Shown here: positions 10,501 to 27,311 of the stretch, one piece after another
Position numbering within the stretch: position 1 is the stretch's first letter
How the letters are laid out: every line of letters starts with the position of its first letter
Notes under the pieces: model-generated
Database searches by the model: none
What the model saw: the letters and a program-made list of their open reading frames with translations, nothing else
Told to the model about the DNA's origin: nothing
Translations under genes and position numbers: made by a program
Assembly: GCA_023253235.1 (NCBI GenBank)
Contig: JALRHE010000184.1
Span: 1-27,311, forward strand
Reading direction: 5' to 3'
Source of the DNA: Steroidobacteraceae bacterium
GTDB taxonomy: Bacteria; Pseudomonadota; Gammaproteobacteria; Steroidobacterales; Steroidobacteraceae
DNA: 27,311 bases

Positions 10501-12286
10501 CGCCGCATTCAACCATCAGCATATTTTCATTGATCCGAATCCCGATCCTGCCACCAGCTTTGCAGAGCGAGCGCGTCTATTCGCACTACCCCGCTCCTCT
10601 TGGACGGACTACAACTCCCGCCTGATCTCCAAGGGTGGCGGCATCTACGAGCGTAGCGCCAAATCGATTCCACTCAGCGCCGAAGCACGCTCGATGCTGC
10701 GTCTCGATGCGACGTCGGCAACGCCGAACGAGGTCATCCGCGCCGTTCTTCGTATGCCGGTCGATTTACTTTGGAATGGCGGAATCGGCACCTACGTCAA
10801 GGCGAGTGACGAACCTCAATCCGCTGCTGGCGATCGCAGCAACGATGCCGTGCGGGTCGACGGCCGCGAGGTACGCGCAAAAGTCGTGGGTGAAGGCGGC
10901 AATCTCGGCTGCACTCAACGCGGACGTGTCGAATACGCCCTCGCGGGCGGACGCATCAATACCGACTTCATCGACAATTCGGCTGGTGTGAACACCTCCG
11001 ACGTCGAGGTCAATCTCAAGATTTTGACCTCCGCCATCGAATCACGCGGTGCCTTGCGCCGAGCAGAGCGCGATCGTCTGCTCGCGCGCTTGACTCAGGA
11101 AGTCACGAAGCTCGTCCTTCGCAACAACTACTTGCAGAGCCAAGCGATATCGACACTCGAGCTGCAGTCAGCCGCGCGCCTACCGGAATTGCAGAGCCTG
11201 ATCAGGCACCTCGAACGCAAAGGCGAACTGGACCGTCAAGTCGAGAACCTACCGGACGACGAGGCACTGGCCGCACGTCGCAAACAAGGACTCGGCCTTA
11301 CGCGTCCCGAATTGGCCGTCGTGCTCGCCTACTCGAAGATCTCGCTCTATCGTCAATTGATCGACACCGATTTGCCGGACGACAGCTACTTCGCCCAGGA
11401 AGTGGAACGATACTTCCCATCGGCCGTGACACAACGCTTCAGCAAGGACGTTCGGCGCCACCAACTCAGAAGAGAGATCGTCACCACGGCCGTGACCAAC
11501 AGCCTAGTCAATCGCATGGGACCGAGTTTTGTCATGCGAGCGTGCGAGGAAACCGGTGCCTCGGCAGCCGACGTCGCTCGCGCCTACAGTATCGCTCGTG
11601 AGTTGTTGCAAGCGCGCGAAGTGTGGAGTGACATCGAAGCGCTCGACAATCGTATCCCGAGCGACGCGCAATACGCGGCTTACGCGGACACCGCCAGAAC
11701 CCTGCGTCATGCCACGATGTGGTTGCTACGACGTCAAAGTAAATTAGTCGTGGCCGACACGGTGTCCGAGTTGAGCACTCCGGTACGCACCTATCAGCAG
11801 ATCGTCCAACGCACTCTCAGCGGCGATCTCAAGCGCGAGTTCAGATCGACGGAGCAGCGTTACCTCGACGCAGGCCTGCCCGCAGCACTCGCGACTCGCT
11901 TGGCAGGCGGTATCTCGCGCGATGCCGCTTTCGATGTGGCCGAGCTCGCCAAACTGCAGAAGCGCCCTGTCGCTGCGGTTGCGGCCGATTGGTTTTCGAT
12001 CGGCGAGAAACTAAAGCTCGATTGGCTGGGATCGCGAATCGACCGCCTGGTCGTGGATGGACCACTGCAGGCAATCGCACGCTCCGGACTACGCGAGGCC
12101 GTACGCAAACTGCAACGCTCGATCGTCACGGCGGTCGCGAAGCAAGACTACACGCGATGGTCGGCTAGCCGACGGGAAGCGCTGACACGCTGGGAACGGA
12201 CGCTTGCGGACGTGTCGGCAGGTGGCTCGAGCGACTTCGCCGCCTTGTCGGTGTGTGTCGACAGCTTGCGCAGCCTCACCGACTAA
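7517..12286 (+). CDS. gdhB: Large NAD-specific glutamate dehydrogenase (1589 aa)
   Basis: Motifs RGGLRWSDRREDFRTE, KNTVIVPVGAKGGF, DDPYLVVAADKGTATFSD, GVGDMSGDVFGNGML and INTDFIDNSAGV; size typical of the ~180 kDa GDH class. Confidence 0.97.
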   Translation: MPTQLPKRRLNLIDRIVKAAQGQADRMPLDMLRRYFSGVGEEDLAARDATYLAGIAGLHYGLAEKRRTDQTLLKIVHVSDSSSLVLIATDDRPFLVESLGIAFAETGVAVRMLVHPVLHVRRDGRGRLQSTHDGAQERSQAESWQLYEIDRLWDSESTARLESRLYAALEHVQLAVTDWLAMRAKVRLAIEQLTKTPLRGERARQRDEAIALLNWMEGAHFVFLGYQYQRLTRGAHRDRLQADRRSGLGILRAGSVQTVATETLQGELRDAMRSSDPLIITKSALRSTVHRSGHLDHLTVKDFDTQGRVRGEHRFLGLWTATAYFASPNDIPVVRRKVSEVITRFGLDPRSHDGKAVLAVLETWPRDELFQCSPSELVDFVRGVVNLYDRPTTRVMLRHDPLGRFWSCMAFVPRDRYTTEVRHRIEALLTRHCGGSDLESQVQIALSNHARLHVMIRGGVEKLSGAQIAALEREVADAVATWTDHLRTTLQGALAPAAAARLFQRYANLFPLAYQTAVSPSTSLQDINAMEHLANSNATMHWRVHHPELDSRTTPARLHLRLVRRGSSLPIADLVPMFENFGLRLLGEQSWILGETSSQKIAIQDFEIELKADAQFQVEADGNRLLEGLQSVRDGLIDNDGFNRLLLSTPLDIRQINVLRACCRYLLQAGIPFSQRYMERTLESNAAVTHDLYQLFAVRHDPKLRKETREKTEAQILSRLAKRLDGIVNADEDRILRRFQAVILAILRCNFFQRDQDGQHRPVLAFKLDPKVIPDLPLPRPRYEIYVVGPRVEGVHLRMGEVARGGLRWSDRREDFRTEILGLMKAQNVKNTVIVPVGAKGGFVARQLPSGPRDAIQAEGIAAYRQYINALLDLTDNIVAGRLAPPVNLHRRDGDDPYLVVAADKGTATFSDIANSIAVERGFWLGDAFASGGSAGYDHKKMGITARGAWECVKRHFRELGRDIQREPFTVAGVGDMSGDVFGNGMLLSQQIKLVAAFNHQHIFIDPNPDPATSFAERARLFALPRSSWTDYNSRLISKGGGIYERSAKSIPLSAEARSMLRLDATSATPNEVIRAVLRMPVDLLWNGGIGTYVKASDEPQSAAGDRSNDAVRVDGREVRAKVVGEGGNLGCTQRGRVEYALAGGRINTDFIDNSAGVNTSDVEVNLKILTSAIESRGALRRAERDRLLARLTQEVTKLVLRNNYLQSQAISTLELQSAARLPELQSLIRHLERKGELDRQVENLPDDEALAARRKQGLGLTRPELAVVLAYSKISLYRQLIDTDLPDDSYFAQEVERYFPSAVTQRFSKDVRRHQLRREIVTTAVTNSLVNRMGPSFVMRACEETGASAADVARAYSIARELLQAREVWSDIEALDNRIPSDAQYAAYADTARTLRHATMWLLRRQSKLVVADTVSELSTPVRTYQQIVQRTLSGDLKREFRSTEQRYLDAGLPAALATRLAGGISRDAAFDVAELAKLQKRPVAAVAADWFSIGEKLKLDWLGSRIDRLVVDGPLQAIARSGLREAVRKLQRSIVTAVAKQDYTRWSASRREALTRWERTLADVSAGGSSDFAALSVCVDSLRSLTD

Positions 12287-14903: not shown

Positions 14904-15734
14904 CTAGGCGTGGGACGCGTTTCCAGCGGAATGCGACGCTAGTGCCATCCAAACCCCGTCCAAGATGCGGCGAGCCTCGACCCACCAACTCAAGCGTCGC
15001 ACTCGCTCTGCATGCCCAAGACAACCTAGAGCGTCGAAAACATCCTCCGGCCACCAATCCGGGCGCGGCGCGGTCGCGTTCTGCGCCACCTGCCACTCCG
15101 CCTGCAAGACCGACGACGCGGTCAACAAACCCGCCAAGTCCTCTAGAGGGTGCCCTGCGTGCGCATACTCCCAGTCGATACAGATCAAGCGCCCATCCGC
15201 TCGGCGCAGCACATTGCCCGAGTGCAGATCGCCGTGTACCAGGCACGGGCGGAACCGCGATACCACGCCCTCCTGTGGCGCACTCTTTTCTGACTGAGTC
15301 CGAAGCGCGTGCCATCGAGGTTGCCAAGTCAGCCCTGCGTTCGAGTCGATCTGACTCAGCCTATCGAGCAACTCCTCGATGCGACCGCACACATCGAGCC
15401 TTGGAACGTCCGCCGCATCGAGACTGCGTAGCTGATCGAGCAGCGTCACGAGCACCGATCTCGATGAGGACGCAACCAGCTCGTCTACGACGAGAGGCGC
15501 ACCGTCCACCCACTCGATCTCCATCCAGCGCGACGCCCAATCCAGATTAGTGATCTGTGGGGCGATACCGACTCGACTCGCCAAACGATGCGCGGCTAAC
15601 TCTGCATCGCGACTGGCACCCAACCACGACGCTCGATCTGCACTGCTCCAGTGCCGACGAACGACACGCTGATCCTGACCCTGCCGAAACTCGATACGGT
15701 TACCCGTGAGCGAGCGAGGTGTCGACGCACTCAT
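14904..15734 (-). CDS. Choline/aminoglycoside kinase-fold phosphotransferase, probable thiamine kinase (276 aa)
   Basis: Brenner motif HGDLHSGN and IDWEYA. ATGA overlap with the PnuC gene. TPP-riboswitch context suggests a ThiK-like role. Confidence 0.8.
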   Translation of the reverse strand: MSASTPRSLTGNRIEFRQGQDQRVVRRHWSSADRASWLGASRDAELAAHRLASRVGIAPQITNLDWASRWMEIEWVDGAPLVVDELVASSSRSVLVTLLDQLRSLDAADVPRLDVCGRIEELLDRLSQIDSNAGLTWQPRWHALRTQSEKSAPQEGVVSRFRPCLVHGDLHSGNVLRRADGRLICIDWEYAHAGHPLEDLAGLLTASSVLQAEWQVAQNATAPRPDWWPEDVFDALGCLGHAERVRRLSWWVEARRILDGVWMALASHSAGNASHA

Positions 15735-16315
15735 CGGCGCTGTAGCCACCAGCTGCGCAGACCAACAACGGCGATGACGAAATAAATCGAATACAGCATC
15801 GCAACGAACATCAAACCCTGCGCCGAATACATGTAGAACGACAACGCATCGACGAGTAGCCAATAAAGCCAGTTCTCGAGGATCGCTCGGGCGGTCATCC
15901 ACGTGGCGAGCAGACTGAGACCGGTGACCACCACATCGAGATGTGGCCACGCCGCTGCGGTGTGCTGCTGCAAGAGCGGCGCACCGAACCAGACCAAGGC
16001 GGCGATGACGAGCCACGCGACGAGGTGCCGCCTCCAGCCCCACATCGTCACGGCGATGACCGTCTCACCCGGTGCCACCTTCGACCAGTGCCAAAAACCG
16101 TAGACGGCCATCAACACGTAAACGGCCTGTAACACCGCCTGCAGCGGCAAGGCTGCGCCCGCGGCCAACCATACCAACACAGCAGACGAGGCGGCACCAA
16201 ACACCCAGGCCCAGCGGATGCGTTTTACAGCAAGAATGGCATAGACGACGCCGCAGACCAGTGCCACGTGCTCAGCCCAATGCGTCGCGAGTAGTTGATC
16301 GAGCCAGCTTTGCAC
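15731..16315 (-). CDS. pnuC: PnuC-family vitamin transporter, probable thiamine transporter (PnuT type; 194 aa)
   Basis: Hydrophobic; motifs WAWVFGA, YGFWHW, ATWMTAR and ENWLYWLLVD. GTG start abuts the receptor stop. Confidence 0.9.
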   Translation of the reverse strand: MQSWLDQLLATHWAEHVALVCGVVYAILAVKRIRWAWVFGAASSAVLVWLAAGAALPLQAVLQAVYVLMAVYGFWHWSKVAPGETVIAVTMWGWRRHLVAWLVIAALVWFGAPLLQQHTAAAWPHLDVVVTGLSLLATWMTARAILENWLYWLLVDALSFYMYSAQGLMFVAMLYSIYFVIAVVGLRSWWLQRR

Positions 16316-18364
16316 TTAGTGCACCGTCCAAGTCACGTTGAGTCCAACGCGACGGGGATCCGCCAGCTGCACATACAGCTTGTTCGGATAGTCCGGCGGC
16401 TCGTTACCAAAGAAAAAACCGCGTTGGGCATAGTCTTCATCTAGAGCATTGCGAGCCCACACATCGACCCGCCAACGCAAAGTCTCGTAGCCCGCGCGCA
16501 GATTGAGCAAGTTGTAGGACTGTGATCGTTCATCGTGACTGTCGCTGAAGTAGAACGCAGCGACATGCTGTAAATCGGCTCTCGCAAACCAACCGCGCTC
16601 GTGACGATATTCGGCGCTCAATGCCGCTTGTCGCGAGGGTGCATGCGCCTGCTCGCGACCCGCGAGGTCGCGATCAACCGTCGCATAATCCAGAAAGCGT
16701 GTACGCAAAACACCCACCGAAGCCGACAACTGCCAACGCGCCGACACTCGGCGACTGACGCTGGCTTCTAGGCCCGCATTCTCGCCACGCGCCGCATTGT
16801 CCGTGAGGTAAATGAACGATAGCGGATCGCCCGGATCGAGTTGGGCTGATGTGCTCACTTGTTGATCCGCACGTCGCATCAAAAACAGATTCGCTTCGAG
16901 GCGCCAAAGGCGATTCGGATCCTCCGCCTTGTAGCCGACTTCGATCGAGTTCAAGACCTCTTCCGAAAACTCCCGACGATCAGTCGGAATCACGGCGCCG
17001 ATGTTGAAACCTCCCGCCTTGTAGCCGCGCGCGAGCGATACGTATGCGCGTCGATGCGAATCGATTTGGTAGCTGAGTGATACGTTACCACCCCACATGC
17101 TCTCGCCCGGCGCCAGGTCAGTACCATCGGAATCGACATAATCCGAGTCGCGATGCTCGAAGCGTGCGCCGACCGTGAGGGTCCAGCGACTCGACAGCGC
17201 CTGATCGACAGAGCCGTAGAGCGCCGCGTGGCGAGCCCGATAATCGCTACGCAAGCTGCGATAGATCTCGCCGCCGTAAAGATCGAGCTGATCGTTGCTC
17301 TCGCGGATATCCAGACCATAGAGGCCGACAATCCATCCTCCGTCGTTCGATAACCAACGCAAGTCCTGACTGATGGTTTGACGATCTCGGAGGAATCGCG
17401 AGGTAAAGTCGTAGTTGGGATCAAAACCCCAGTCGCCGTCGAAGGAGTAGAGGATGTCTGCATCGACGAGTGCAGTGACGCTTCGAAACTCCACCGCCCC
17501 CTCACGCGCCAACTGTAGCGACATACCGTAAGAGCGCTGTCGATCACGACCAGGATCATCCGATCGAGTCCGTCGCGAGTTATCGATGGAAAACGCGTCG
17601 AAGCCGTTATCCTGATCGACCGCAAGCACAGACCAATCGGCTTGCCAGTGCGGTGCAAATCGATGCGTGCTGCGCCAGCGCAAGGTGTCCTCCGACAATC
17701 CGTTGGTATCGTCGCGAGCCAAGAATTCGTTATAGCGTGCGCCATCGGCACGATAACGCTGCGCGGCAACACGCCAGGCAGACTCCTTACCGAGTGCTCC
17801 TCCTGCGACGAGACCCAGTGACGCCACGCCCGCCTCGCCCCAACTGGCCTCCCAACGTTGCTGCTGCTCGTCTGTCGGCTTTTGACTACGTACGTGCAGC
17901 AAGCCCGCTAACGCATTGGCACCGAAGGTGGTTCCTTGAGGCCCCCGCAATACTTCGATTTGCTCGAGATCGAGCAGCGTCGCTGGCATACCGATACCCG
18001 AAAAGTCCATCCCATCGATCAAAAATCCAACCGACGGATTCGGCGCGCCTTGCCACTGATCCGTCTCGCCGATTCCACGTAGTTGAAAGTAACGGGGTCG
18101 GGAGCTGCCGGAAGCCCAGTTGAGGTTCGGCACGAGTGGCAGCACGTCTTGTAGATGTTGCAAGCCCGCCGCCTGCAACGTGCCTTGATCAAGGACCGTG
18201 ACGCTCGCGGGAACCTCCAGAGACGCCATCGGCCGCAACGTCGCGGTCACGATGACCTCTTCAAGAACCGGCTCGGACTCGGCCGCCGACACCGCTGCGA
18301 CGGGCGCGAGAACGACGAGAACAAAAAAGACCAACACAAAACGCGACAGACGAAATGGATACAC
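16316..18364 (-). CDS. TonB-dependent receptor, probable thiamine uptake (682 aa)
   Basis: Signal peptide, TonB-box-like EEVIVTAT, plug motif IEVLRGPQGTTFGANALAG, and C-terminal NLRAGY...NALD...GLNVTW. Lies directly under a TPP riboswitch. Confidence 0.93.
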   Translation of the reverse strand: MYPFRLSRFVLVFFVLVVLAPVAAVSAAESEPVLEEVIVTATLRPMASLEVPASVTVLDQGTLQAAGLQHLQDVLPLVPNLNWASGSSRPRYFQLRGIGETDQWQGAPNPSVGFLIDGMDFSGIGMPATLLDLEQIEVLRGPQGTTFGANALAGLLHVRSQKPTDEQQQRWEASWGEAGVASLGLVAGGALGKESAWRVAAQRYRADGARYNEFLARDDTNGLSEDTLRWRSTHRFAPHWQADWSVLAVDQDNGFDAFSIDNSRRTRSDDPGRDRQRSYGMSLQLAREGAVEFRSVTALVDADILYSFDGDWGFDPNYDFTSRFLRDRQTISQDLRWLSNDGGWIVGLYGLDIRESNDQLDLYGGEIYRSLRSDYRARHAALYGSVDQALSSRWTLTVGARFEHRDSDYVDSDGTDLAPGESMWGGNVSLSYQIDSHRRAYVSLARGYKAGGFNIGAVIPTDRREFSEEVLNSIEVGYKAEDPNRLWRLEANLFLMRRADQQVSTSAQLDPGDPLSFIYLTDNAARGENAGLEASVSRRVSARWQLSASVGVLRTRFLDYATVDRDLAGREQAHAPSRQAALSAEYRHERGWFARADLQHVAAFYFSDSHDERSQSYNLLNLRAGYETLRWRVDVWARNALDEDYAQRGFFFGNEPPDYPNKLYVQLADPRRVGLNVTWTVH

Positions 18365-19550: not shown

Positions 19551-20153
19551 ATGAGAAACTCACTCTTGCTGGCAATCGGACTCTGCGTTGTATCGATGGC
19601 ACCACTGGCTGCGGCCTCGCCGTTGTGCGCAACGAGCGAACAACGATCCCTTATCCAAGCGGCGATGGCTGATCCGGCTAAACCCGCACCCTACCGAGTC
19701 GCGGCGAAACTCTCGTTGCCGGAGGCAACCGTCCAGAGCGCGTTGGCGCCGGCGAGTTACGGAGTCGATGCGAGCGTTTTCCGCAGTGTCTGGACCAGCC
19801 TCACGGCATGGGACGAAGCTGTCACTGTCGTCATGAAAGGCGGCCATATCTTTGAAACACATGGCCGTATACCCGAGGGAGAACCCTCGAAGCGCAGTCA
19901 ATTCTTCAATCTGAAATCGGAAGCCGAGGGCATGCATGGCCATTTGCGTCCTGACCAGCTGTCGGCAATCTACGTAATGGAACTCGCCATCGGCGACGAA
20001 ACGCAGCGTGGTGTGTTGTTCTACGACAAGCAGGGTGACATCGCTTTCGGCGTTTATCTGCCCGGTGAGGGACACACGCCGACAACGGCGACGCTGCAGC
20101 AGTTTGCGGCAACGCGCAGTTTGATCGAGAAGCAGCCGGCGCTCTGCCGCTAA
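19551..20153 (+). CDS. Secreted ChuX/HutX-like protein (200 aa)
   Basis: Sec-type signal peptide, then AKLSLPEA, W..L..W, FE..G, FFNL, GHL and LFYDKQG...F.VYL, matching my recollection of the ChuX/HutX pattern. AGGAG SD. Confidence 0.65.
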   Translation: MRNSLLLAIGLCVVSMAPLAAASPLCATSEQRSLIQAAMADPAKPAPYRVAAKLSLPEATVQSALAPASYGVDASVFRSVWTSLTAWDEAVTVVMKGGHIFETHGRIPEGEPSKRSQFFNLKSEAEGMHGHLRPDQLSAIYVMELAIGDETQRGVLFYDKQGDIAFGVYLPGEGHTPTTATLQQFAATRSLIEKQPALCR

Positions 20154-20168: not shown

Positions 20169-21167
20169 TCAGCGCAGTATCTCGTCGACGATCGAGTCGA
20201 CACCGTAACGAACCGGGTCCGATGCGGGCAGACTGAAACGCTGCGCGAGTTCGCTCAGCAAACGGCGCGCCGCGTCATCGGCCAGCGCTGAAGTGTTGAT
20301 CGCCATGCCGACAAAACGAGCGGCGGGATTCATCATTCGCGCACAGCGCAAATGCAACTCGAAGCAGTCCTCTAGCGTCGGGACAGGCCAGTGCGGCAAA
20401 CCGCGCAGGTGTTGGCGGGTTGGCTCATGACACATGACCAACGCATCGGGCGTCGCGCCATGCAGTAATCCGAGACTGACTCCCGAGTATGACGGGTGAA
20501 AGAGCGACCCCTGCCCCTCGATCAGATCCCAGTGATCAGGCGTATTCGCTGGACAGAGCTGCTCGACGGAACCGGCGACGAAATCCGACACCACCGCGTC
20601 GACTGGAACACCGCCGCCCGCGATCATGATGCCGGTCTGTCCGGTCGCGCGAAAATCAGCCGGCACACCTCGGTCGCGCAACGCGCGCTCCAAAGCCAGC
20701 GTCGTGTACATCTTGCCAACCGAACAGTCGGTGCCGACGGCGAGTAGACGGCGCCCGCTGCGAGGCAACGCGTTGGCGATCGGGTATTGCGCGGGTTCCC
20801 GCACTTCGATGATGCGAGCGCCGGATCGCGCTGCAGCCTCGCGAATGGGGGCGATACTCCCAAGACGGGTATGCAGACCGTTACAAAGGTCGTAACCAAG
20901 TTCCAGCGCACGCACGAGCACCGAAATCCAGCTCTCGGCAATGGTGCCGCCTCGATTCGCCACCCCGATGAGCAGGGTACGCGCACCGCGACGACGCCCT
21001 TCCTCCAAGTCGATTTCATCGATAGGCAACTTGGGAACACAACCGGGCAAACGCAACTGACCGACGCACTCCTCGGGCCGCCATTGCCACACGCCGATCG
21101 CGGTCTTGGCGGCAAGATCATCGTGAGCATCACCGAGGAACAGCAAATACGGCTTGTGGATGATCAT
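20169..21167 (-). CDS. dgcN: DUF1611-family protein, DgcN-like D-glutamate N-acetyltransferase (332 aa)
   Basis: PYLLFLGDA...AAKTA N-terminus, GTDCSVGKMYT, FRATGQTGI, DAVVSDF and IEGQGSLFHPSY. GGAGG SD. ATGA overlap with the upstream gene. Confidence 0.85.
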   Translation of the reverse strand: MIIHKPYLLFLGDAHDDLAAKTAIGVWQWRPEECVGQLRLPGCVPKLPIDEIDLEEGRRRGARTLLIGVANRGGTIAESWISVLVRALELGYDLCNGLHTRLGSIAPIREAAARSGARIIEVREPAQYPIANALPRSGRRLLAVGTDCSVGKMYTTLALERALRDRGVPADFRATGQTGIMIAGGGVPVDAVVSDFVAGSVEQLCPANTPDHWDLIEGQGSLFHPSYSGVSLGLLHGATPDALVMCHEPTRQHLRGLPHWPVPTLEDCFELHLRCARMMNPAARFVGMAINTSALADDAARRLLSELAQRFSLPASDPVRYGVDSIVDEILR

Positions 21168-22066
21168 CGCAACGCCTCCGTCAACACGAGCGATACGTCG
21201 GCAATCCATTTTTGAGCCGCGTTATCGGGCGAGTAGTCTATCTGCGGCAGACCATCGATCGTAATGGCAATCGCCACGCGCCCGTGAGGGGTATAGACGA
21301 TCCCGACATCACTACGCAGCGCATCGAGTGAGCCCGACTTGCTCGCCACCCGAAACTGATCGATTTTGCGTCCAATTCCATCCTTGTATTGCTGCCGCTC
21401 GAGCATCTGCAGAACGAGTCGCGAGGAATCGCCGTCGACCACTTTCCCCTGCTCGAGCAACTCCAACAAGCGAACCATCTCTCGCGGCGTCGAGACACCG
21501 ATACCGAAACGTTGGTTCTCGGGACGACCGCCTTCGCGCGTCCACCCCTGTGCCGGCTTGAGCTGATTCCCATCCCCTCGAATCTTGCGCATCACTCGAG
21601 TCCGCTCGAAACCGAGTGACGCCAAATATTCGTTCACTGGATCGCCACCGACTCGATCGAGGATGAGATTGGTGGCCGTGTTGTCACTGACTATGATCAT
21701 CAGCATCGTCGCATCGCGCAGCGAGATCGACTCACCGTCGCTGAAATCCGCGAGTACGCCCGACCCCGAGACCTTGTCTTCGGCGCGAATGGTCAACCGA
21801 TCAGACCAAGCGTATTTACCATCGGCCACGAACTGGGCGACCGCACAAGCGATCGGTAATTTGATCGTACTGGCGGTACGTACCGGCTCGTCCGCATCGA
21901 TGGCGACGTCACGCCCTGAGTCGAGGTTGCGCGCGTAGAGCGAGACTCGCCCATCGATCTGCTTGGACATCTCACGCACACGCGCTTCAAGCTCCTCGGC
22001 AGACGCCGGGACCGAACAAACACCCAAGACCAACAGGACCGCGGTAACGATCGACCGGACCTTCAT
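21164..22066 (-). CDS. Secreted class A beta-lactamase-like serine hydrolase (probable peptidase; 300 aa)
   Basis: Signal peptide; SxxK (STIK), SDN and KSG motifs; the Glu166-equivalent position appears to be Ile. Confidence 0.88.
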   Translation of the reverse strand: MKVRSIVTAVLLVLGVCSVPASAEELEARVREMSKQIDGRVSLYARNLDSGRDVAIDADEPVRTASTIKLPIACAVAQFVADGKYAWSDRLTIRAEDKVSGSGVLADFSDGESISLRDATMLMIIVSDNTATNLILDRVGGDPVNEYLASLGFERTRVMRKIRGDGNQLKPAQGWTREGGRPENQRFGIGVSTPREMVRLLELLEQGKVVDGDSSRLVLQMLERQQYKDGIGRKIDQFRVASKSGSLDALRSDVGIVYTPHGRVAIAITIDGLPQIDYSPDNAAQKWIADVSLVLTEALR

Positions 22067-23559
22067 GTCGTGCTCCGAGGCTGCGTATCGTGAGACTTGC
22101 CGATCGGCAGCAACGCAACGCCGAGACACAAGCCTAAACCCAGCGGAAACAACCACGGGAATGCGACCAACTTACCGCTGTCAACCAAACCGAATATCGA
22201 TGCATTGTCGATCACGAGCACCCCGACGATCGATGCCACGACGCCGAGTGCCGGTTGACGGATGTAACGCTTGGGAATGAACAAAGCCATCAAGAACAAG
22301 CCCAGCATCGACCCATAGGTATAGGCCGTCATGGCGAATGCGAGTGGAATGAGTCGCTCGTCGGTTCCGCCGAGCATGATGGCAAATCCACCGAGCGCGA
22401 CACCCCAGAACGCGACGAGAAGACGTGATAGCCACACAGCATCAGCATCGGCCAGAGTCCCTCGGCGATGCCCATCATGGAACATCGTGAGACTGGTCTC
22501 GGCTAATGCCGACAAGACCGGGCTCGACATGGCAGCGGCAAAGAGTGCAGCCACCATGAAGCCGCGTAATCCACTCGGCAACTCGGAAAGAATGAACGCA
22601 GGAAAAATCCGATCGGTATTCTCAGCCACCATTCCGGCGAAAGCGGGGTCTATCGCCTCGCGACCGTAAAAACCCCACAGCGACACACCCACCAACAGAA
22701 ACAGTACGACTACTCCCTCACCAATGTTGCTGGCATAGAGCGCGCGGCGAGCCTCGGTCACAGATCGACAACACAACATGCGTTGCGTGTTCAACTGATC
22801 GGTACCGTAGGCCGCCAGATTCTGAAATGGCATTGCGAAGACGCCGGCCCAGAACGTGAAGCTCACGAGCGGATCGGTCGAAAAGTCGAAGATGCGGGTT
22901 TTTCCAGCGTCATCCGCTGCACTCATCAGCGTGCTGAACCCACCCGGATACTCTGCAGCGACATACCAAACGGCAATCAAACCACCCGCGATCAACATGA
23001 TGAACTGGACGACATCGGTCCACACGACGGCCCTTACGCCGCCGAGCCAAGTGCTGACCACGGCCACACCGACACTCAGCATCACGCACCACGTGAAATC
23101 GAGGCCCGTCAGCAGCTCCAGAACCAGCGAGACCGCAAAGATGCGCACGCCTTGCCCCAGAATGGCCCCGACGAAGAACAGCAACGCCGACAACTGACCG
23201 AAGCGCGAGCCCAGCCGATCGCGGATGTAATCGTAGGGACTGGCATACGAGCCTGCGTAAAGCTTGGGCATGATCCAGTGACCGAAGATCCACTTCGAGA
23301 TGAACCCGGCGACACAGAACTGCAGATAGCGGAAATCCCCGCCGTCGGCGAATACCAACGCAGGGACACCGATGAAGGTCACGCCACTGACAGTTGTAGA
23401 GATGATCGACGCCGACACGGCATACCAAGGCAAACTACGCGAGCCGAGGAAGTACTCGTGAACGTTGGATTGGCGACCGCTCAGGCGATGCCCAATCAAA
23501 GTGACGAGCGCGAAGTAAGCGCCCACCACCAACCAATCGAGGATGCCGAAATACGTCAT
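22063..23559 (-). CDS. Sodium:solute symporter (SSS) family transporter (498 aa)
   Basis: Motifs EYFLGSR.LPW, SGVTFIG.P, GGVRAVVWTDVVQ, GTDQ...QR.L and GLRGFMVAALFAAAMSS. Confidence 0.94.
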   Translation of the reverse strand: MTYFGILDWLVVGAYFALVTLIGHRLSGRQSNVHEYFLGSRSLPWYAVSASIISTTVSGVTFIGVPALVFADGGDFRYLQFCVAGFISKWIFGHWIMPKLYAGSYASPYDYIRDRLGSRFGQLSALLFFVGAILGQGVRIFAVSLVLELLTGLDFTWCVMLSVGVAVVSTWLGGVRAVVWTDVVQFIMLIAGGLIAVWYVAAEYPGGFSTLMSAADDAGKTRIFDFSTDPLVSFTFWAGVFAMPFQNLAAYGTDQLNTQRMLCCRSVTEARRALYASNIGEGVVVLFLLVGVSLWGFYGREAIDPAFAGMVAENTDRIFPAFILSELPSGLRGFMVAALFAAAMSSPVLSALAETSLTMFHDGHRRGTLADADAVWLSRLLVAFWGVALGGFAIMLGGTDERLIPLAFAMTAYTYGSMLGLFLMALFIPKRYIRQPALGVVASIVGVLVIDNASIFGLVDSGKLVAFPWLFPLGLGLCLGVALLPIGKSHDTQPRSTT

Positions 23560-24347
23560 ACGCGCGGCAATCTGCGGCCAGACCCCTCACCCGGATAAAC
23601 GCGTCCGTTGGCGCCCGGGTAGGCATAGCCGTTGATCAGCACGCGACGCGAAAACTGTGATTCGTTCGATGTGCTGCCATGCACAGCATAGGGACCGAAA
23701 AAAAGCACTGAGCCACTCTCTCCGGTGACCGTGATTGCCGCCGACTCGTCGAACTGCGCAGCCTCCGCTGCAGGATCCATCGGGGTGCCGTAGTCGTAGT
23801 GCGAGGAGAAGATGCGTCCCTCGGCATCACCCCGAACCGATTCGCGCGGAATGAACTTGAGCGGCCCGTTTTTCTCCGTCATGTCGTCGATCAGCGTGAT
23901 CGTCTGCACATAGGAGCCCCGACCGTTCAAATCCTTCCAGGTGCCAGGGCCCTTATCGCGGTGCTGAATATCCTGGTGCCAATCGAATGAGACGCCATCA
24001 CCGGGCATCTTGAAGTGCGCCTGACATAGCAACTGCTCGCAATGATCACTGCCGAGTAACTGCAGAGCAGGCTCAACCAATCGGCTATCAGCCGACAAAT
24101 CCAGCAACGTGGACTCCGCTCCACCAGCCCAAACCACTCGCTTGACGATCACCTCACCCTGCGGCGGAGCTTCCAAGACGAAATACGCACCGGCGTGATT
24201 TTGGGTCGTGCGCAATTGCTGTGCTGTGACATACAAACGCTCGAAGGCCTCACGGGCACGACTCATCTCGCTCGAGGAGAACAGCGCGGGAACCACCACC
24301 CAGCCGCGATCGAAGAATGCTGCAACCTGTTCAGCCGACAATTTCAT
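23556..24347 (-). CDS. PhyH-family Fe(II)/2-oxoglutarate dioxygenase (263 aa)
   Basis: LS.EQV..F...GW N-terminus, WHQD (HxD), IDDMT..NGPL, distal VHGS..N.S..SRR. No signal peptide. ATGA overlaps on both sides. Confidence 0.9.
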   Translation of the reverse strand: MKLSAEQVAAFFDRGWVVVPALFSSSEMSRAREAFERLYVTAQQLRTTQNHAGAYFVLEAPPQGEVIVKRVVWAGGAESTLLDLSADSRLVEPALQLLGSDHCEQLLCQAHFKMPGDGVSFDWHQDIQHRDKGPGTWKDLNGRGSYVQTITLIDDMTEKNGPLKFIPRESVRGDAEGRIFSSHYDYGTPMDPAAEAAQFDESAAITVTGESGSVLFFGPYAVHGSTSNESQFSRRVLINGYAYPGANGRVYPGEGSGRRLPRV

Positions 24348-26731
24348 CTCGATGAGCCCTCGACTCCATAGATCAAAAACTCCCGCCGCGACTGTCGCCA
24401 CTCGTTCTCGACCGTCCGCCAGGAATCCACGACGACATCAACCGAAAGACCGGATCGAAGCTGCCCGACGATCTGACGCCCGAACAAGCCCGCGATCCGA
24501 TCAAGCTCGAATTCACTCGGGTACAACCGATGCAGGGCGTGGGCCAGCTCGACGCCGAGTCGTACCGGTTTCAAGGCCGCACGATCCGTCACGACGAAGA
24601 ACACACCATGACACAGTTCGCCGGCAAACTTGCTGCTCGTCGGCGTGAAACTGACCGGGTAGACACGTAAGCCCGATATGTTTCTCGCATTGAGTTCACG
24701 AGCGAGCTCGGTTGCATCGATCCACGGTGCACCAATGAGCTGGAATGGAGTGTCGGTACCGCGACCCACCGAGACGTTCGCTCCTTCGATCGTGGCAACT
24801 CCCGGGTAGAGGCTCGTCGAGACGAGATTACGAAGATTTGGTGAGGGATTGACCCAGCGAAGACCCGACTCGTCGAACCAGCTGCGACGATCCCATCCCT
24901 GCACGGGGATCACCGTCAGCGCTGCCGACGTTTTGCGGTTGAAGTAGCGAGCAAGCTCGCCGATCGTCAAACCATGTCGAATCGGCATTGGTTGATAAGC
25001 CGTAAACGATAACTCCGCGGAATCGAGACTTGGGCCCTCGATACTCACGCCATCAATGGGGTTGATTCGATCCAGCACGATCACAGGCAGCTTACGGGCT
25101 GCAGCAGCTTCGAGCATGTAAGCCATACTGGTGGCGTACGTATAGAAGCGCGCACCGACATCTTGCAAGTCGATCACGATGACATCGAGATTGGCCAACA
25201 TCGCGTCGGTCGGTCGACGAGTTTCCCCATAGAGCGAGTGAATGACGAGACCCGTCTTCGCATCGCGCGACGAAGGCACCTTTTCATCCAGCTCGCCCCG
25301 AATGCCATGCTCAGGGCTGAACAATGCGGCTAACGTCACGCCATCCGCTTGCGCCAGTAGGTCGATAGTCGTCAACCCGTCGTGCGAGCGGCCCGTCTGA
25401 TTGGTTAGCAGTCCGACTCGTTTGCCCTGCAGCGGCGCAAATCCACTCGCCCTGAGCACATCGATACCTTGCCGTACGTCGCCAACACTCACGGCACGCG
25501 CGAGTGGCGCAGTTGGAAACTCCGGCGAAGCGTAACGCTGCGCACGCCATCGATCGACGGGTTCGCTCGCAGAAAACTCCGCCGCCACGATCGTGGCGAC
25601 CTTGGATCGCACTGGCGTCGCATCGCCCTTGCCATCGGGATGCACCCGGTTGGTCAGCAGCACGACATAGGTTCGACTGACTGGATCGATCCAGATCGAC
25701 GTGCCGGTAAAACCCGTATGACCAAAAGATCCAATCGGATATAGGTCGCCGCGATTGGCCGAGTAACTGCTGTCAATGTCCCAGCCGAGCCCACGCTGCA
25801 CATTCAAATTCGGCGGCGTTGCCGTCGATGTCATGCGGACTACGCCCGCGGGCGACAGCACACGTCGTCCATCCAGTTCGCCACCGCGCAGCAACATGCG
25901 CGCGAATCTCGACAGATCTTCGGCGGAACCGAACAAACCCGCATGACCTGCCACGCCACCCATACGACGGGCCGTCGGATCGTGCACGATGCCTTGCAGC
26001 AATATTTGATTCGGGCCATCGCATGGCCAACCGTAGGCAGTACAGAACTGGGTCGGCGCGATCACATCGCGTCGCGCCTCTATCGGTGTGAATCCGGCCG
26101 ATGTCATGCGCATCGGATCGAGAATCCGCTGCTGCACGAATGTCTGCAGCGGTTGACCTGCGACTCTCGCTACGATTTCACCCAGGACGATGTAGCCGAT
26201 ATCGCTATAGACGAAGCGCTCACCGGGCGCCGACTGCGGGAGCTCGTCGACAGCTCGCCGAACGGCCTCATCGGCGCCCAACCAATCGCCCCTCAGATCG
26301 AGACTCGGACGCAGACCCGACGTGTGCGTCAGCAGATGACGCAAGGTGATCTGATCTTTATCGTGTCTCGCGAACTCCGGCAGATGTTGCGCGACTTTAT
26401 CGGAGAGCCGAAGTTTGCCCTCCTCTACGAGGATCATCACCGACGTCGCCGTCGCGATGCCCTTGGTCAACGATGCCAGGTCGAATACGGTGTCGAGCCT
26501 CATCGGCTCGAGCGTCGGTTTTACAGCGCGATAACCATACGCTTTACGGTACAGGGTTTGATCACCACGCCCGATCCACACCACGGCACCCGGGATCTGC
26601 TGCCGCGTGATGGCATCCTCGATCGCGGCATCGACTTTGTTGGTCCAACCGGATCCCGCTGCGGATGCGACCGAACCGAGCAGCGCGAGCATGCCCCACG
26701 CCAGCGCACGTATCGGACCGACTTTGATCAT
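24344..26731 (-). CDS. namZ: Secreted fusion: class C beta-lactamase-fold hydrolase (AmiE-like) plus exo-beta-N-acetylmuramidase NamZ (DUF1343/GH171) domain (795 aa)
   Basis: N-domain has FDLASLTK (SxxK), YSD.GY and GHTGFTG. C-domain has VGLLTNQTG, FSPEHG.RG, SLYG, DLQDVGARFYTY, RHG.T.GEL, PSPN and VSVGRGT..PF. Signal peptide present. Confidence 0.92.
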   Translation of the reverse strand: MIKVGPIRALAWGMLALLGSVASAAGSGWTNKVDAAIEDAITRQQIPGAVVWIGRGDQTLYRKAYGYRAVKPTLEPMRLDTVFDLASLTKGIATATSVMILVEEGKLRLSDKVAQHLPEFARHDKDQITLRHLLTHTSGLRPSLDLRGDWLGADEAVRRAVDELPQSAPGERFVYSDIGYIVLGEIVARVAGQPLQTFVQQRILDPMRMTSAGFTPIEARRDVIAPTQFCTAYGWPCDGPNQILLQGIVHDPTARRMGGVAGHAGLFGSAEDLSRFARMLLRGGELDGRRVLSPAGVVRMTSTATPPNLNVQRGLGWDIDSSYSANRGDLYPIGSFGHTGFTGTSIWIDPVSRTYVVLLTNRVHPDGKGDATPVRSKVATIVAAEFSASEPVDRWRAQRYASPEFPTAPLARAVSVGDVRQGIDVLRASGFAPLQGKRVGLLTNQTGRSHDGLTTIDLLAQADGVTLAALFSPEHGIRGELDEKVPSSRDAKTGLVIHSLYGETRRPTDAMLANLDVIVIDLQDVGARFYTYATSMAYMLEAAAARKLPVIVLDRINPIDGVSIEGPSLDSAELSFTAYQPMPIRHGLTIGELARYFNRKTSAALTVIPVQGWDRRSWFDESGLRWVNPSPNLRNLVSTSLYPGVATIEGANVSVGRGTDTPFQLIGAPWIDATELARELNARNISGLRVYPVSFTPTSSKFAGELCHGVFFVVTDRAALKPVRLGVELAHALHRLYPSEFELDRIAGLFGRQIVGQLRSGLSVDVVVDSWRTVENEWRQSRREFLIYGVEGSSR

Positions 26732-26770
26732 CTGTCACCCCGCTTTTGGGTCTCAGTTTCCGACCCGCTT

Positions 26771-26804
26771 GACGAAAAAACCCGCCGACGCGGGTTTTTT
26801 CGTC
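26771..26804. terminator. Intrinsic (potentially bidirectional) terminator hairpin
   Basis: GACGAAAAAACCCGC-CGAC-GCGGGTTTTTTCGTC is a perfect 15-bp inverted repeat with a T6 tract on each strand, 13 nt after the receptor stop. Confidence 0.88.
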
Positions 26805-26817
26805 GATTGCGTATCTA

Positions 26818-27311
26818 TCAAAAGTCGACGCGCAACGAGAGCTGCACACGCCGCGGCAGGAAGAAGCTGCGTGCCTGACCAAACTGCGGGCTGTAGTCGA
26901 CCGGATCAATGTTGTATCCGGTCTGTCGATCGAACACGTTGAAGAGATCCGCACGGAACTTCAAGGTGGGCAACGAGGCCACTTGGAATTCCTGCGTGTA
27001 GTTCAGATCGAGTTGCCAGTGACTGGCGCTGCGACGGCTACCCGCGGGCTCGGCGTAAGACGAGGTCGTGTCGTACGAGTTGTTGACGCGCAGACCATAG
27101 TAAGTGCCCGACCACTTCTCCCAAGGCTGACCCGACTGGAACACGAAGTACGCGCCCAAGTTGGCTTTCCAATCCGTGGTGTAGTGACCGAATACCTTGA
27201 GCAAGTACGGGCGATCGCCCGAGAGCGTGCCGTCCTTATTATCCCAAGGGAACTTACCCGGATCATCGGCATAAAACGACGAACCGATGAACGTATTGGC
27301 GTCGTTGACCG
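26818..27311 (-). CDS. C-terminal part of a TonB-dependent receptor (5' end outside the window)
   Basis: Frame is open from the right edge. Ends QLDLNY...FRADLFNVF...PRRVQLSLRVDF with a terminal Phe, as expected for an outer-membrane beta-barrel. Double stop TGA TAG. Confidence 0.88.
   Translation of the reverse strand, partial: VNDANTFIGSSFYADDPGKFPWDNKDGTLSGDRPYLLKVFGHYTTDWKANLGAYFVFQSGQPWEKWSGTYYGLRVNNSYDTTSSYAEPAGSRRSASHWQLDLNYTQEFQVASLPTLKFRADLFNVFDRQTGYNIDPVDYSPQFGQARSFFLPRRVQLSLRVDF

What the first reader, a model, noticed from the sequence alone, without database searches (positions are those of the whole stretch)
20169..27311. Candidate peptidoglycan-scavenging locus (PUL-like) of five translationally coupled genes behind a TonB receptor
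Seen: AmiE-like/NamZ fusion, PhyH dioxygenase, SSS symporter, class A-like serine hydrolase and DgcN are each joined to the next by an ATGA overlap (24344-47, 23556-59, 22063-66, 21164-67), downstream of a TonB receptor. Known: NamZ releases MurNAc from peptidoglycan glycan ends; Bacillus AmiE (class C fold) removes stem peptides from MurNAc; DgcN acetylates D-Glu. Inference: the locus provides outer-membrane import, periplasmic sugar and peptide trimming, inner-membrane uptake and D-Glu catabolism, i.e. a system for eating other bacteria's cell walls. It differs from the canonical AmpG/NagZ/MurQ recycling route. I do not recognise this gene combination as described.
Basis: partly seen in the sequence, partly recalled or inferred. 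Interest (0 to 1): 0.82.

Follow-up and report, generated by a model that had tools for sequence, protein, structure and literature searches.

The report
Peptidoglycan-fragment scavenging operon with unexplained dioxygenase
A freshwater Steroidobacteraceae bacterium carries a tightly overlapping five-gene operon behind an outer-membrane receptor that most likely imports and dismantles pieces of other bacteria's cell walls, and its conserved core is an uncharacterised dioxygenase-transporter pair whose reaction is unknown.

Summary
Five minus-strand genes (20169-26731) are joined by four ATGA overlaps, and these are conserved in relatives. They lie behind the C-terminal end of a TonB-dependent receptor, with a conserved terminator hairpin in between.

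- In complete relatives the locus extends upstream to a periplasmic LdcA-like carboxypeptidase and an M19 dipeptidase.
- The full five-gene set occurs only in the closest relatives.
- The conserved core is the PhyH-SSS pair. In 30 of 31 Steroidobacteraceae loci it sits next to peptidoglycan enzymes, in at least four different gene arrangements and behind two unrelated receptor types.
- DgcN has a DgcA partner elsewhere in the genome.
- MurQ, AnmK and NagA were not found. AmpG, NagZ and an AmgK-like/MurU pair are present.

I therefore think the stem peptides are catabolised while MurNAc is probably salvaged rather than "eaten".

The beta-lactamase-fold/NamZ fusion is a very large uncharacterised family. 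In Acidobacteriota it also follows a TonB receptor.

The PhyH substrate is unresolved. Its nearest solved relatives hydroxylate free amino acids, and oxidative cleavage of the MurNAc lactyl ether is not excluded.

Verdict: a new variant of known cell-wall recycling and scavenging systems. No biochemical evidence exists.

The parts
26818..27311 (-). C-terminal 163 codons of a TonB-dependent outer-membrane receptor (Oar-like, CarboxypepD_reg type), cut by the contig end
   Evidence: The translation ends in ...LRVDF. It is 96-98% identical to the C-terminus of a 1003-aa ORF in G003, G022 and G020 that carries CarboxypepD_reg and OMP_b-brl_4. The window equals the whole contig C190.
26771..26804 (-). 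Conserved 15-bp stem-loop with a U-run between the receptor and g1. It is a likely intrinsic terminator or attenuator.
   Evidence: Minimum free energy is -31.9 kcal/mol, z = -5.3 against shuffles. The stem is invariant and only the loop varies across 6 type-A loci. The simple terminator scan did not flag it, probably because the A/U runs pair and extend the stem.
24344..26731 (-). g1: secreted fusion of a beta-lactamase-fold serine hydrolase (AmiE/PBP4B-like) with the exo-beta-N-acetylmuramidase NamZ (GH171)
   Evidence: Pfam gives PF00144 at residues 33-372, and PF07075 plus PF20732 at 439-788. The motifs SLTK87, YSD174 and HTG338 and an N-terminal signal peptide are present. PDB hits are 4K05 (6.6e-66) and 4JJA. 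At least 8000 fusion homologues exist.
23556..24347 (-). g2: cytoplasmic Fe(II)/2-oxoglutarate dioxygenase of the PhyH family, substrate unknown
   Evidence: PF05721 scores 82.2 bits. H124, D126, H223 and R234 are invariant in the ortholog alignment. The nearest solved relatives are GriE leucine hydroxylase, proline hydroxylase H11 and EctD. There is no signal peptide or TM segment.
22063..23559 (-). g3: inner-membrane sodium:solute symporter (SSS family), always paired with g2
   Evidence: TIGR00813 scores 194.5 against a cut-off of 184, and no equivalog is reached. The protein has many hydrophobic segments. The PhyH-SSS pair is kept in all 31 Steroidobacteraceae loci and in 4 more distant gammaproteobacterial loci.
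21164..22066 (-). g4: secreted class-A-like serine hydrolase. It is PBP-A-like and not a validated beta-lactamase.
   Evidence: PF13354 scores 212.5 bits, but NF033103 scores only 106.6 against a cut-off of 200. The motifs STIK66, SDN127 and KSG243 and a signal peptide are present. The nearest PDB entries are 4EWF and Thermosynechococcus PBP-A Tll2115. Homologues at 64-68% identity are stand-alone genes.
20169..21167 (-). g5: DgcN, D-glutamate N-acetyltransferase (DUF1611)
   Evidence: NF041892 scores 495.9 bits against a cut-off of 480. A DgcA partner (NF042940, 431.6 against 400) lies on contig C135 next to a 50%-identical second DgcN.

Best explanation
The locus is a system for taking up and processing peptidoglycan fragments in a freshwater Steroidobacteraceae bacterium.

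Proposed mechanism:
1. A TonB-dependent receptor brings muropeptides or glycan-strand fragments into the periplasm.
2. The g1 amidase-like domain strips stem peptides from non-reducing-end MurNAc. The g1 NamZ domain then releases free MurNAc.
3. The class-A-like PBP (g4) trims the peptides, together with the periplasmic LdcA-like carboxypeptidase and M19 dipeptidase encoded just upstream in relatives.
4. The SSS symporter (g3) imports one small product. This may be MurNAc, or an amino acid derived from the peptide.
5. The cytoplasmic PhyH dioxygenase (g2) oxidises that product.
6. DgcN (g5) acetylates released D-glutamate. DgcA, encoded elsewhere, racemises the product toward L-glutamate.
7. 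MurNAc is probably fed into UDP-MurNAc by the AmgK-like/MurU pair, because MurQ, AnmK and NagA are not found.

Shown here: gene order, domains, signal peptides, conservation of the linkage, and presence or absence of the partner genes.
Inferred: every substrate, the direction of flux, and the PhyH reaction.
For: Operon and overlaps. Domains.

Upstream extension in G003: M19, S66 and the receptor, all with signal peptides.

Linkage of PhyH-SSS to peptidoglycan genes: 30 of 31 Steroidobacteraceae loci place PhyH-SSS directly beside NamZ, a NagX-like acetyltransferase, an AmpD-like amidase, a beta-lactamase-fold protein, S66, M19 or an acyltransferase-transglycosylase fusion. There are at least 4 arrangements. 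The receptor types are unrelated between arrangements.

A shorter fusion-PhyH-SSS operon with the same overlaps occurs in a lineage at 64-75% identity.

Within the genus, PhyH-positive genomes mostly have 2 or more NamZ matches: 28 of 34, against 5 of 27 PhyH-negative genomes. These genomes are relatives, not independent samples.

In Acidobacteriota the same fusion again follows a CarboxypepD_reg receptor, with an S58 peptidase and an SSF transporter nearby.

DgcA is present and MurU is present (298.7 against a cut-off of 250).

Precedent: Tannerella places namZ1 next to the sodium-symporter-type MurNAc transporter MurT (PMC5790795; bioRxiv 10.1101/2021.12.02.470905). Bacillus NagZ, AmiE and NamZ digest peptidoglycan sequentially (PMC8054146).

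RNA-library contigs from 4 freshwater metatranscriptomes touch all five genes and span 3 of the 4 junctions.
Against: - There is no biochemical or genetic evidence for any step.
- A conserved terminator separates the receptor from the operon.
- No periplasmic N-acetylglucosaminidase was found. There is no GH20, and the only GH3 looks cytoplasmic. Exo-degradation of GlcNAc-capped strands is therefore incomplete.
- g3 matches no characterised SSS subfamily and is only 23-26% identical to the acidobacterial SSF.
- Orthologs of g2 in Myxococcota are solitary.
- Homologues of g4 are stand-alone housekeeping-like genes.
- The AmiE assignment rests on context only.
- The RNA contigs may contain DNA and do not prove a single transcript.
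Confidence: 0.62

Rival explanations
1. The operon serves recycling of the cell's own wall-turnover products in the periplasm, not foraging on foreign cell walls. On this reading the receptor next door is a separate transcription unit with another cargo.
For: A conserved terminator lies between the receptor and g1. The five genomes searched (G000, G003, G020, G008, G004) have AmpG, cytoplasmic NagZ and AmgK-like/MurU, which is a recycling backbone. AnmK is missing from 60 of 61 genus genomes searched and NamZ is nearly universal, so NamZ could be how MurNAc is supplied to the MurU shunt.
Against: A receptor of one of two unrelated families sits directly upstream of PhyH-SSS or the fusion in most complete loci of types A, C and D, and again in Acidobacteriota. 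The extra NamZ copy and PhyH-SSS are accessory, found in 34 of 61 genomes, and not core. Own glycan strands end in GlcNAc and anhydroMurNAc, which are poor NamZ substrates (established knowledge).
Confidence: 0.18
2. PhyH-SSS is an independent module for taking up and hydroxylating an unrelated small solute, such as an amino acid or an ectoine-like osmolyte. It merely sits in a variable genomic region, so the five genes are a mosaic without a common pathway.
For: The nearest solved relatives of g2 hydroxylate free leucine, proline or ectoine. The best named SSS hits for g3 are PanF and PutP, at low scores. At about 50% identity the PhyH-SSS pair has non-peptidoglycan neighbours: an aldo-keto reductase and a Cys/Met PLP enzyme. 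In Myxococcota the gene is solitary. One Steroidobacteraceae locus (L046) has no peptidoglycan gene nearby.
Against: Translational coupling (-4 overlaps) to the NamZ fusion is kept in two lineages. The module is adjacent to peptidoglycan enzymes in 30 of 31 loci despite repeated rearrangement.
Confidence: 0.14
3. The locus degrades beta-lactams or D-amino-acid-containing cyanobacterial peptides such as microcystin-type compounds, using its two beta-lactamase-fold hydrolases.
For: There are two serine beta-lactamase-fold proteins with intact SxxK motifs. The habitat is freshwater lakes. DgcN handles D-Glu, which also occurs in such peptides (own knowledge).
Against: The NamZ domain is specific for MurNAc glycosides (PMC8054146). 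Neither hydrolase reaches a beta-lactamase equivalog cut-off. The neighbours across loci are peptidoglycan-specific: AmpD-like, LdcA-like, NagX-like and a transglycosylase domain.
Confidence: 0.05

Closest known systems
Bacillus subtilis murQ-murR-murP-amiE-nagZ-namZ operon (PMC8054146)
   Same: It combines an exo-MurNAc-L-Ala amidase of beta-lactamase fold with NamZ and a MurNAc transporter, and its secreted enzymes act sequentially from non-reducing ends.
   Different: Here the amidase-like and NamZ parts are one polypeptide. The transporter is an SSS rather than a PTS. No NagZ or MurQ is in the operon and no MurQ was found in the genome. A TonB receptor, a PhyH dioxygenase, a class-A-like PBP and DgcN are added.
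Tannerella forsythia ampG-namZ1-murT-murK-murQ peptidoglycan salvage cluster (PMC5790795; bioRxiv 10.1101/2021.12.02.470905)
   Same: It is Gram-negative, has periplasmic NamZ next to a sodium-symporter-superfamily MurNAc transporter, and scavenges foreign peptidoglycan.
   Different: There is no MurK or MurQ here. A dioxygenase stands where the kinase and etherase would be. Orthology of g3 with MurT could not be tested. The organism is not known to be a MurNAc auxotroph.
DgcN-DgcA D-glutamate catabolic pathway of marine bacteria (as summarised in PMC12363236)
   Same: g5 passes the DgcN equivalog cut-off, and the genome has a DgcA that passes its cut-off.
   Different: The operon copy of DgcN is not next to DgcA. 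It is instead coupled to cell-wall hydrolases. A second, canonical dgcN-dgcA pair sits on another contig.
MurU shunt of Pseudomonas and Caulobacter (AmpG, NagZ, AnmK, MupP, AmgK, MurU; PMC13046382)
   Same: AmpG, NagZ and an adjacent AmgK-like/MurU pair are present, and MurQ is absent.
   Different: AnmK was not found in 60 of 61 genomes of the genus. Free MurNAc from NamZ, rather than anhydroMurNAc, may feed the shunt.
TonB-dependent-receptor-led carbohydrate utilisation loci of Proteobacteria, and Bacteroidota PULs
   Same: An outer-membrane TonB-dependent receptor is placed next to periplasmic glycan-degrading enzymes and an inner-membrane transporter.
   Different: There is no SusD partner and no regulator in the locus. 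The proposed substrate is peptidoglycan, and peptide-processing and D-amino-acid enzymes are included.

Membership tests
NamZ / GH171 exo-beta-N-acetylmuramidase | Both NamZ_N and NamZ_C domains score above Pfam gathering scores | tested here: met
   254.3 and 153.5 bits against cut-offs of 26.9 and 25.
NamZ / GH171 exo-beta-N-acetylmuramidase | Sequence homology to the structural templates BF0371 and BF0379 | tested here: met
   4K05 at 6.6e-66 and 4JJA at 9.7e-48.
NamZ / GH171 exo-beta-N-acetylmuramidase | The proposed catalytic Glu (Glu92 of B. subtilis NamZ) and Arg279 are conserved | tested here: inconclusive
   A PEHGIRGE motif (about residues 473-480) is shared with the stand-alone NamZ copies. 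No alignment to B. subtilis numbering was possible with the sequences held.
AmiE (YbbE) / PBP4B exo-MurNAc-L-Ala amidase | Active serine-hydrolase motifs of the class C / R61 type (SxxK, Yx[ND], HxG) | tested here: met
   SLTK87, YSD174 and HTG338.
AmiE (YbbE) / PBP4B exo-MurNAc-L-Ala amidase | Equivalog-level similarity to a characterised member | tested here: not met
   PBP4B NF002968 scores 148.7 bits against a cut-off of 385. No AmiE model or sequence was available.
DgcN N-acetyltransferase | Score above the NCBIfam equivalog cut-off | tested here: met
   495.9 against 480.
DgcN N-acetyltransferase | The partner racemase DgcA is present in the genome | tested here: met
   NF042940 scores 431.6 against 400 on G000:C135, and 434.6 in G003. 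It is not adjacent to the operon copy.
Class A beta-lactamase | Score above the class A equivalog cut-off | tested here: not met
   NF033103 scores 106.6 against 200. SxxK, SDN and KSG are present. The Glu166 equivalent was not resolved.
PhyH-family Fe(II)/2OG dioxygenase | Pfam domain plus the HxD...H iron triad and the 2OG-binding Arg | tested here: met
   PF05721 scores 82.2 against 22. H124, D126, H223 and R234 are invariant in 10 orthologs.
Ectoine hydroxylase EctD | Equivalog score | tested here: not met
   TIGR02408 scores 41.8 against 336.5.
Sodium:solute symporter family | Superfamily model score above cut-off | tested here: met
   TIGR00813 scores 194.5 against 184. PutP, PanF and other equivalogs are not reached.
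MurT-type MurNAc symporter | Orthology to Tannerella MurT | not testable with these tools
Only the superfamily is shared.
Bacteroidota-type PUL | Adjacent SusC/SusD pair | tested here: not met
   No SusD-like gene lies next to the receptor in G003. The neighbours are S66 and M19.

The most novel reading that the evidence does not exclude
The PhyH-family enzyme is an Fe(II)/2-oxoglutarate-dependent 'oxidative etherase'. It would hydroxylate the lactyl alpha-carbon of MurNAc imported by the SSS, so that the hemiketal collapses to GlcNAc plus pyruvate. This would be a MurQ-independent, phosphorylation-independent route for MurNAc in a genus where MurQ was not found in the five genomes searched and AnmK was not found in 60 of 61. 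The chemistry has a precedent in the 2OG dioxygenases that cleave 2-aryloxypropionate herbicides.
Probability: 0.15. Interest if true: 0.85.

Novelty: new variant of a known kind. Interest (0 to 1): 0.63.

Why it matters
Peptidoglycan and its D-amino acids are a large, slowly degraded pool of organic matter in lakes, oceans and soils. The genes that Gram-negative environmental bacteria use to forage on it are poorly known.

This locus gives three concrete targets for experiment:
- A beta-lactamase-fold/NamZ fusion family with thousands of members, placed behind TonB receptors in at least two phyla.
- A dioxygenase-symporter pair that stays attached to cell-wall enzymes through repeated rearrangements, and so probably performs an undescribed step in cell-wall fragment metabolism.
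- A direct genetic link between wall hydrolysis and the DgcN route for D-glutamate.

It also points to a genus in which 60 of 61 genomes searched lack AnmK and five genomes searched lack MurQ and NagA, while those five keep AmpG, NagZ, an AmgK-like kinase and MurU. That raises the question of how the MurU shunt is fed.

Tried and rejected
1. Context of PhyH orthologs in Myxococcota and Bdellovibrionota (38 loci): there are no conserved neighbours, so these loci are uninformative.
2. More distant gammaproteobacterial PhyH-SSS pairs: the neighbours are heterogeneous (aldo-keto reductase, PLP enzyme, amidohydrolase) and give no substrate clue.
3. Is the SSF next to the acidobacterial fusion orthologous to g3? 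No, it is only 23-26% identical.
4. Is g4 a module with DgcN elsewhere? No. Homologues at 64-68% identity are stand-alone genes near ChuX/HutX. No close homologue was found in 299 other Gammaproteobacteria.
5. Complementary distribution of AnmK and PhyH within the genus: rejected, because AnmK is missing from nearly all genomes regardless of PhyH.
6. AlphaFold model of g2: only moderate quality (pLDDT 72.6, with the lid loops below 50). The fold search only repeated the sequence-level neighbours, so I did not attempt to read the binding pocket.
7. Sigma-70 promoter scan of the locus: 0 sites.
8. Context of the universal stand-alone NamZ copy: generic genes (methyltransferase, FAD/FeS oxidase, M3 peptidase, a TonB receptor) and no MurNAc kinase or transporter.
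9. Earlier findings of this scan: none for this stretch.
10. ESM Atlas look-up of g2: only unnamed PhyH clusters.

Full report
**Anatomy**

The window is an entire 27.3-kb contig of a 2.0-Mb, 78%-complete metagenome-assembled genome. The names that sources give its closest homologues place it among freshwater Steroidobacteraceae MAGs from lakes and rivers.

Five ORFs run in one direction on the minus strand: g1 24344-26731, g2 23556-24347, g3 22063-23559, g4 21164-22066 and g5 20169-21167. Each junction is a 4-base ATGA overlap. These overlaps are kept at all four junctions in four relatives at 84-96% protein identity, and at the three junctions visible in a fifth relative whose contig starts at g2. 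The g1/g2 and g2/g3 overlaps are also kept in the sixth type-A locus and in two loci at only 64-75% identity.

- g1 is a beta-lactamase-fold domain fused to NamZ_N and NamZ_C.
- g2 is a PhyH dioxygenase.
- g3 is an SSS symporter.
- g4 is a Beta-lactamase2 protein that fails the class A equivalog cut-off (106.6 against 200).
- g5 is DgcN, above its equivalog cut-off (495.9 against 480).

g1 and g4 start with signal peptides. g2 and g5 have none.

The g1 hydrolase domain keeps SLTK, YSD and HTG. g4 keeps STIK, SDN and KSG. The NamZ part matches the two Bacteroides GH171 structures.

**The receptor and what lies beyond the contig end**

The last 163 codons of the contig end in ...LRVDF. They are 96-98% identical to the C-terminus of a 1003-aa receptor with a CarboxypepD_reg domain and an OMP_b-brl_4 barrel in relatives.

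In the near-complete relative G003 the order is M19 dipeptidase (divergent), S66 LdcA-like carboxypeptidase, receptor, then g1-g5. The S66 and M19 proteins and the receptor all have signal peptides.

Between the receptor and g1 lies a 15-bp stem with a U-run (-31.9 kcal/mol, z = -5.3). The stem is invariant in six loci and only the loop varies. The receptor is therefore probably a separate or attenuated transcription unit. No sigma-70-like promoter was detected.

**How far the arrangement is conserved**

A scan of one genome per species with a PhyH ortholog alignment returned 80 loci. I screened them with proteins from this and related loci. All 31 Steroidobacteraceae-type loci keep the PhyH-SSS pair. 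In 30 of them the pair is directly next to peptidoglycan-related genes, in several arrangements:

| Type | Arrangement | Loci |
|---|---|---|
| A | S66, receptor, fusion, PhyH, SSS, class-A-like, DgcN | 6 |
| A, shorter | fusion, PhyH, SSS | L060, L123 |
| B | stand-alone NamZ plus NagX-like transmembrane acetyltransferase, divergent from PhyH-SSS | about 15 |
| C | AmpD-like lipoprotein amidase, 543-aa beta-lactamase-fold protein, M19, S66, (receptor), PhyH, SSS | L042, L051 |
| D | S66, receptor, PhyH, SSS, acyltransferase-transglycosylase fusion | 6 |

The receptors of types A and D are unrelated in sequence.

The five-gene set of this window is therefore a recent assembly. What persists is the attachment of PhyH-SSS to cell-wall enzymes and to outer-membrane import.

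Within the genus, 34 of 61 genomes carry PhyH. Of those, 28 have two or more NamZ matches, against 5 of 27 PhyH-negative genomes. These genomes are relatives, so this is a description and not a statistical test.

Outside the family the signal fades. Orthologs at 55-63% identity in Myxococcota are solitary. PhyH-SSS pairs at about 50% identity have unrelated neighbours.

**The fusion protein**

Many are about 60% identical and come from Acidobacteriota. Two acidobacterial loci again place it right after a CarboxypepD_reg receptor, with an S58 (DmpA-type) peptidase and an SSF transporter nearby. That SSF is not orthologous to g3.

Calling the N-terminal domain "AmiE-like" rests on two things. 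One is the Bacillus amiE-nagZ-namZ precedent (PMC8054146). The other is that PBP4B is the best NCBIfam hit, although it is far below its cut-off.

**Fate of the products**

I searched five genomes: G000 and four relatives that are 94-100% complete.

| Gene | Result |
|---|---|
| MurQ | not found |
| AnmK | not found in these five; missing in 60 of 61 genus genomes |
| NagA | nothing above cut-off |
| GH20 | not found |
| AmpG | present, one copy |
| GH3 NagZ | present, one copy; looks cytoplasmic in G003 |
| AmgK-like kinase next to MurU | present; MurU scores 298.7 against 250 in G000, and the adjacent APH/NTP-transferase pair occurs in all five |

This pattern argues that amino sugars are salvaged into UDP-MurNAc rather than burned.

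For D-glutamate, DgcA is present (NF042940, 431.6 against a cut-off of 400). In G000 it lies next to a second DgcN that is 50% identical to g5. In G003 it lies next to a GltS glutamate symporter. DgcN was not found in two genomes with other arrangements, and the enolase-family scan used to locate DgcA gave no hit above cut-off there.

**The unexplained step**

g2 has an intact HxD...H triad and 2OG-binding arginine. Its nearest solved relatives by sequence and by fold are GriE leucine 5-hydroxylase, proline hydroxylase H11 and ectoine hydroxylase. Sugar-modifying members of the family (EvdO2, HygX, AviO1, SnoK/N) are further down the list. The model was only moderate (pLDDT 72.6).

The product common to the most abundant arrangements is free MurNAc. 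In type B, NamZ is the only hydrolase. Tannerella pairs NamZ with a sodium-symporter-type MurNAc transporter. A MurNAc-directed reaction is therefore possible, including oxidative cleavage of the lactyl ether. Hydroxylation of a stem-peptide amino acid fits the enzyme's relatives better. I cannot decide between the two.

**Expression**

Contigs from four independent freshwater metatranscriptomic libraries cover parts of all five genes and the receptor. They span the g5/g4, g4/g3 and g2/g1 junctions. These are assembler contigs from RNA libraries. They may include DNA and do not prove a single transcript.

**Literature**

Searches for DgcN, NamZ, GH171, peptidoglycan utilisation with TonB receptors, and MurNAc with dioxygenase found no description of this gene combination or of an oxidative MurNAc route.

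**Verdict**

I add these corrections:
- The conserved core is PhyH-SSS, not the five-gene set.
- The locus extends to LdcA-like and M19 peptidases.
- The receptor is set off by a terminator.
- AmpG and NagZ exist in the genome.
- The sugars are probably salvaged.

This is a new variant of known cell-wall recycling and scavenging systems. It contains one component that remains unknown.

Noticed in passing
Genomes G000, G003, G004, G008, G020 for MurQ, NagA, AmpG, NagZ and AmgK-like/MurU; 61 genus genomes for AnmK and NamZ: AnmK is missing from 60 of 61 genus genomes and NamZ is present in 60 of 61. In the five genomes searched, MurQ and NagA were not found, while AmpG, a cytoplasmic-looking NagZ and an adjacent AmgK-like/MurU pair are present. 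How anhydroMurNAc enters the MurU shunt here is unclear.
   Followed up: partly
G000:C135 (L121:6004-8264, minus strand): A second, canonical dgcN-dgcA pair sits on another contig. Its DgcN is 50% identical to g5. Next to it is a BhcC-like PLP enzyme (284.9 bits, below its cut-off).
   Followed up: partly
L124 and L125 (Acidobacteriota contigs): The same beta-lactamase-fold/NamZ fusion (about 60% identity) follows a CarboxypepD_reg TonB receptor, with a divergent S58 (DmpA-type) peptidase plus SSF pair. This may be a cross-phylum foraging module.
   Followed up: partly
L034:12331-13965, and L117:1204-3691 in G003: A small 78-aa ORF, a 2OG-FeII_Oxy_3 protein and a DUF6065 protein follow PhyH-SSS in many loci. 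In G003 the same trio follows a fatty-acid-hydroxylase-family gene instead, so it is probably a separate module.
   Followed up: partly
window 14904-18364, minus strand: A TonB receptor, a PnuC-type transporter and a thiamine-kinase-like APH gene form a likely vitamin-salvage cluster. The APH gene is not AmgK.
   Followed up: partly
window 7517-12286, plus strand: A large (1589 aa) NAD-specific glutamate dehydrogenase lies 8 kb from the operon. It fits glutamate catabolism, but no conserved linkage was examined.
   Followed up: no
window 19551-20153, plus strand; L127, L128: A ChuX/HutX-like gene lies convergent to DgcN. In relatives without the operon, the stand-alone g4 homologue lies within about 7 kb of a ChuX/HutX-like gene. 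This hints that the operon was assembled at the ancestral g4 site.
   Followed up: partly
L040 and L065 (record titles): Two public MAG records that carry this Steroidobacteraceae-type locus are titled Klebsiella pneumoniae. This looks like a mislabelled taxonomy.
   Followed up: no
L067-L104, L109: PhyH orthologs at 52-63% identity are common in predatory lineages (Polyangiaceae, Kofleriaceae, Labilithrix, Halobacteriovoraceae). They are solitary genes there.
   Followed up: partly
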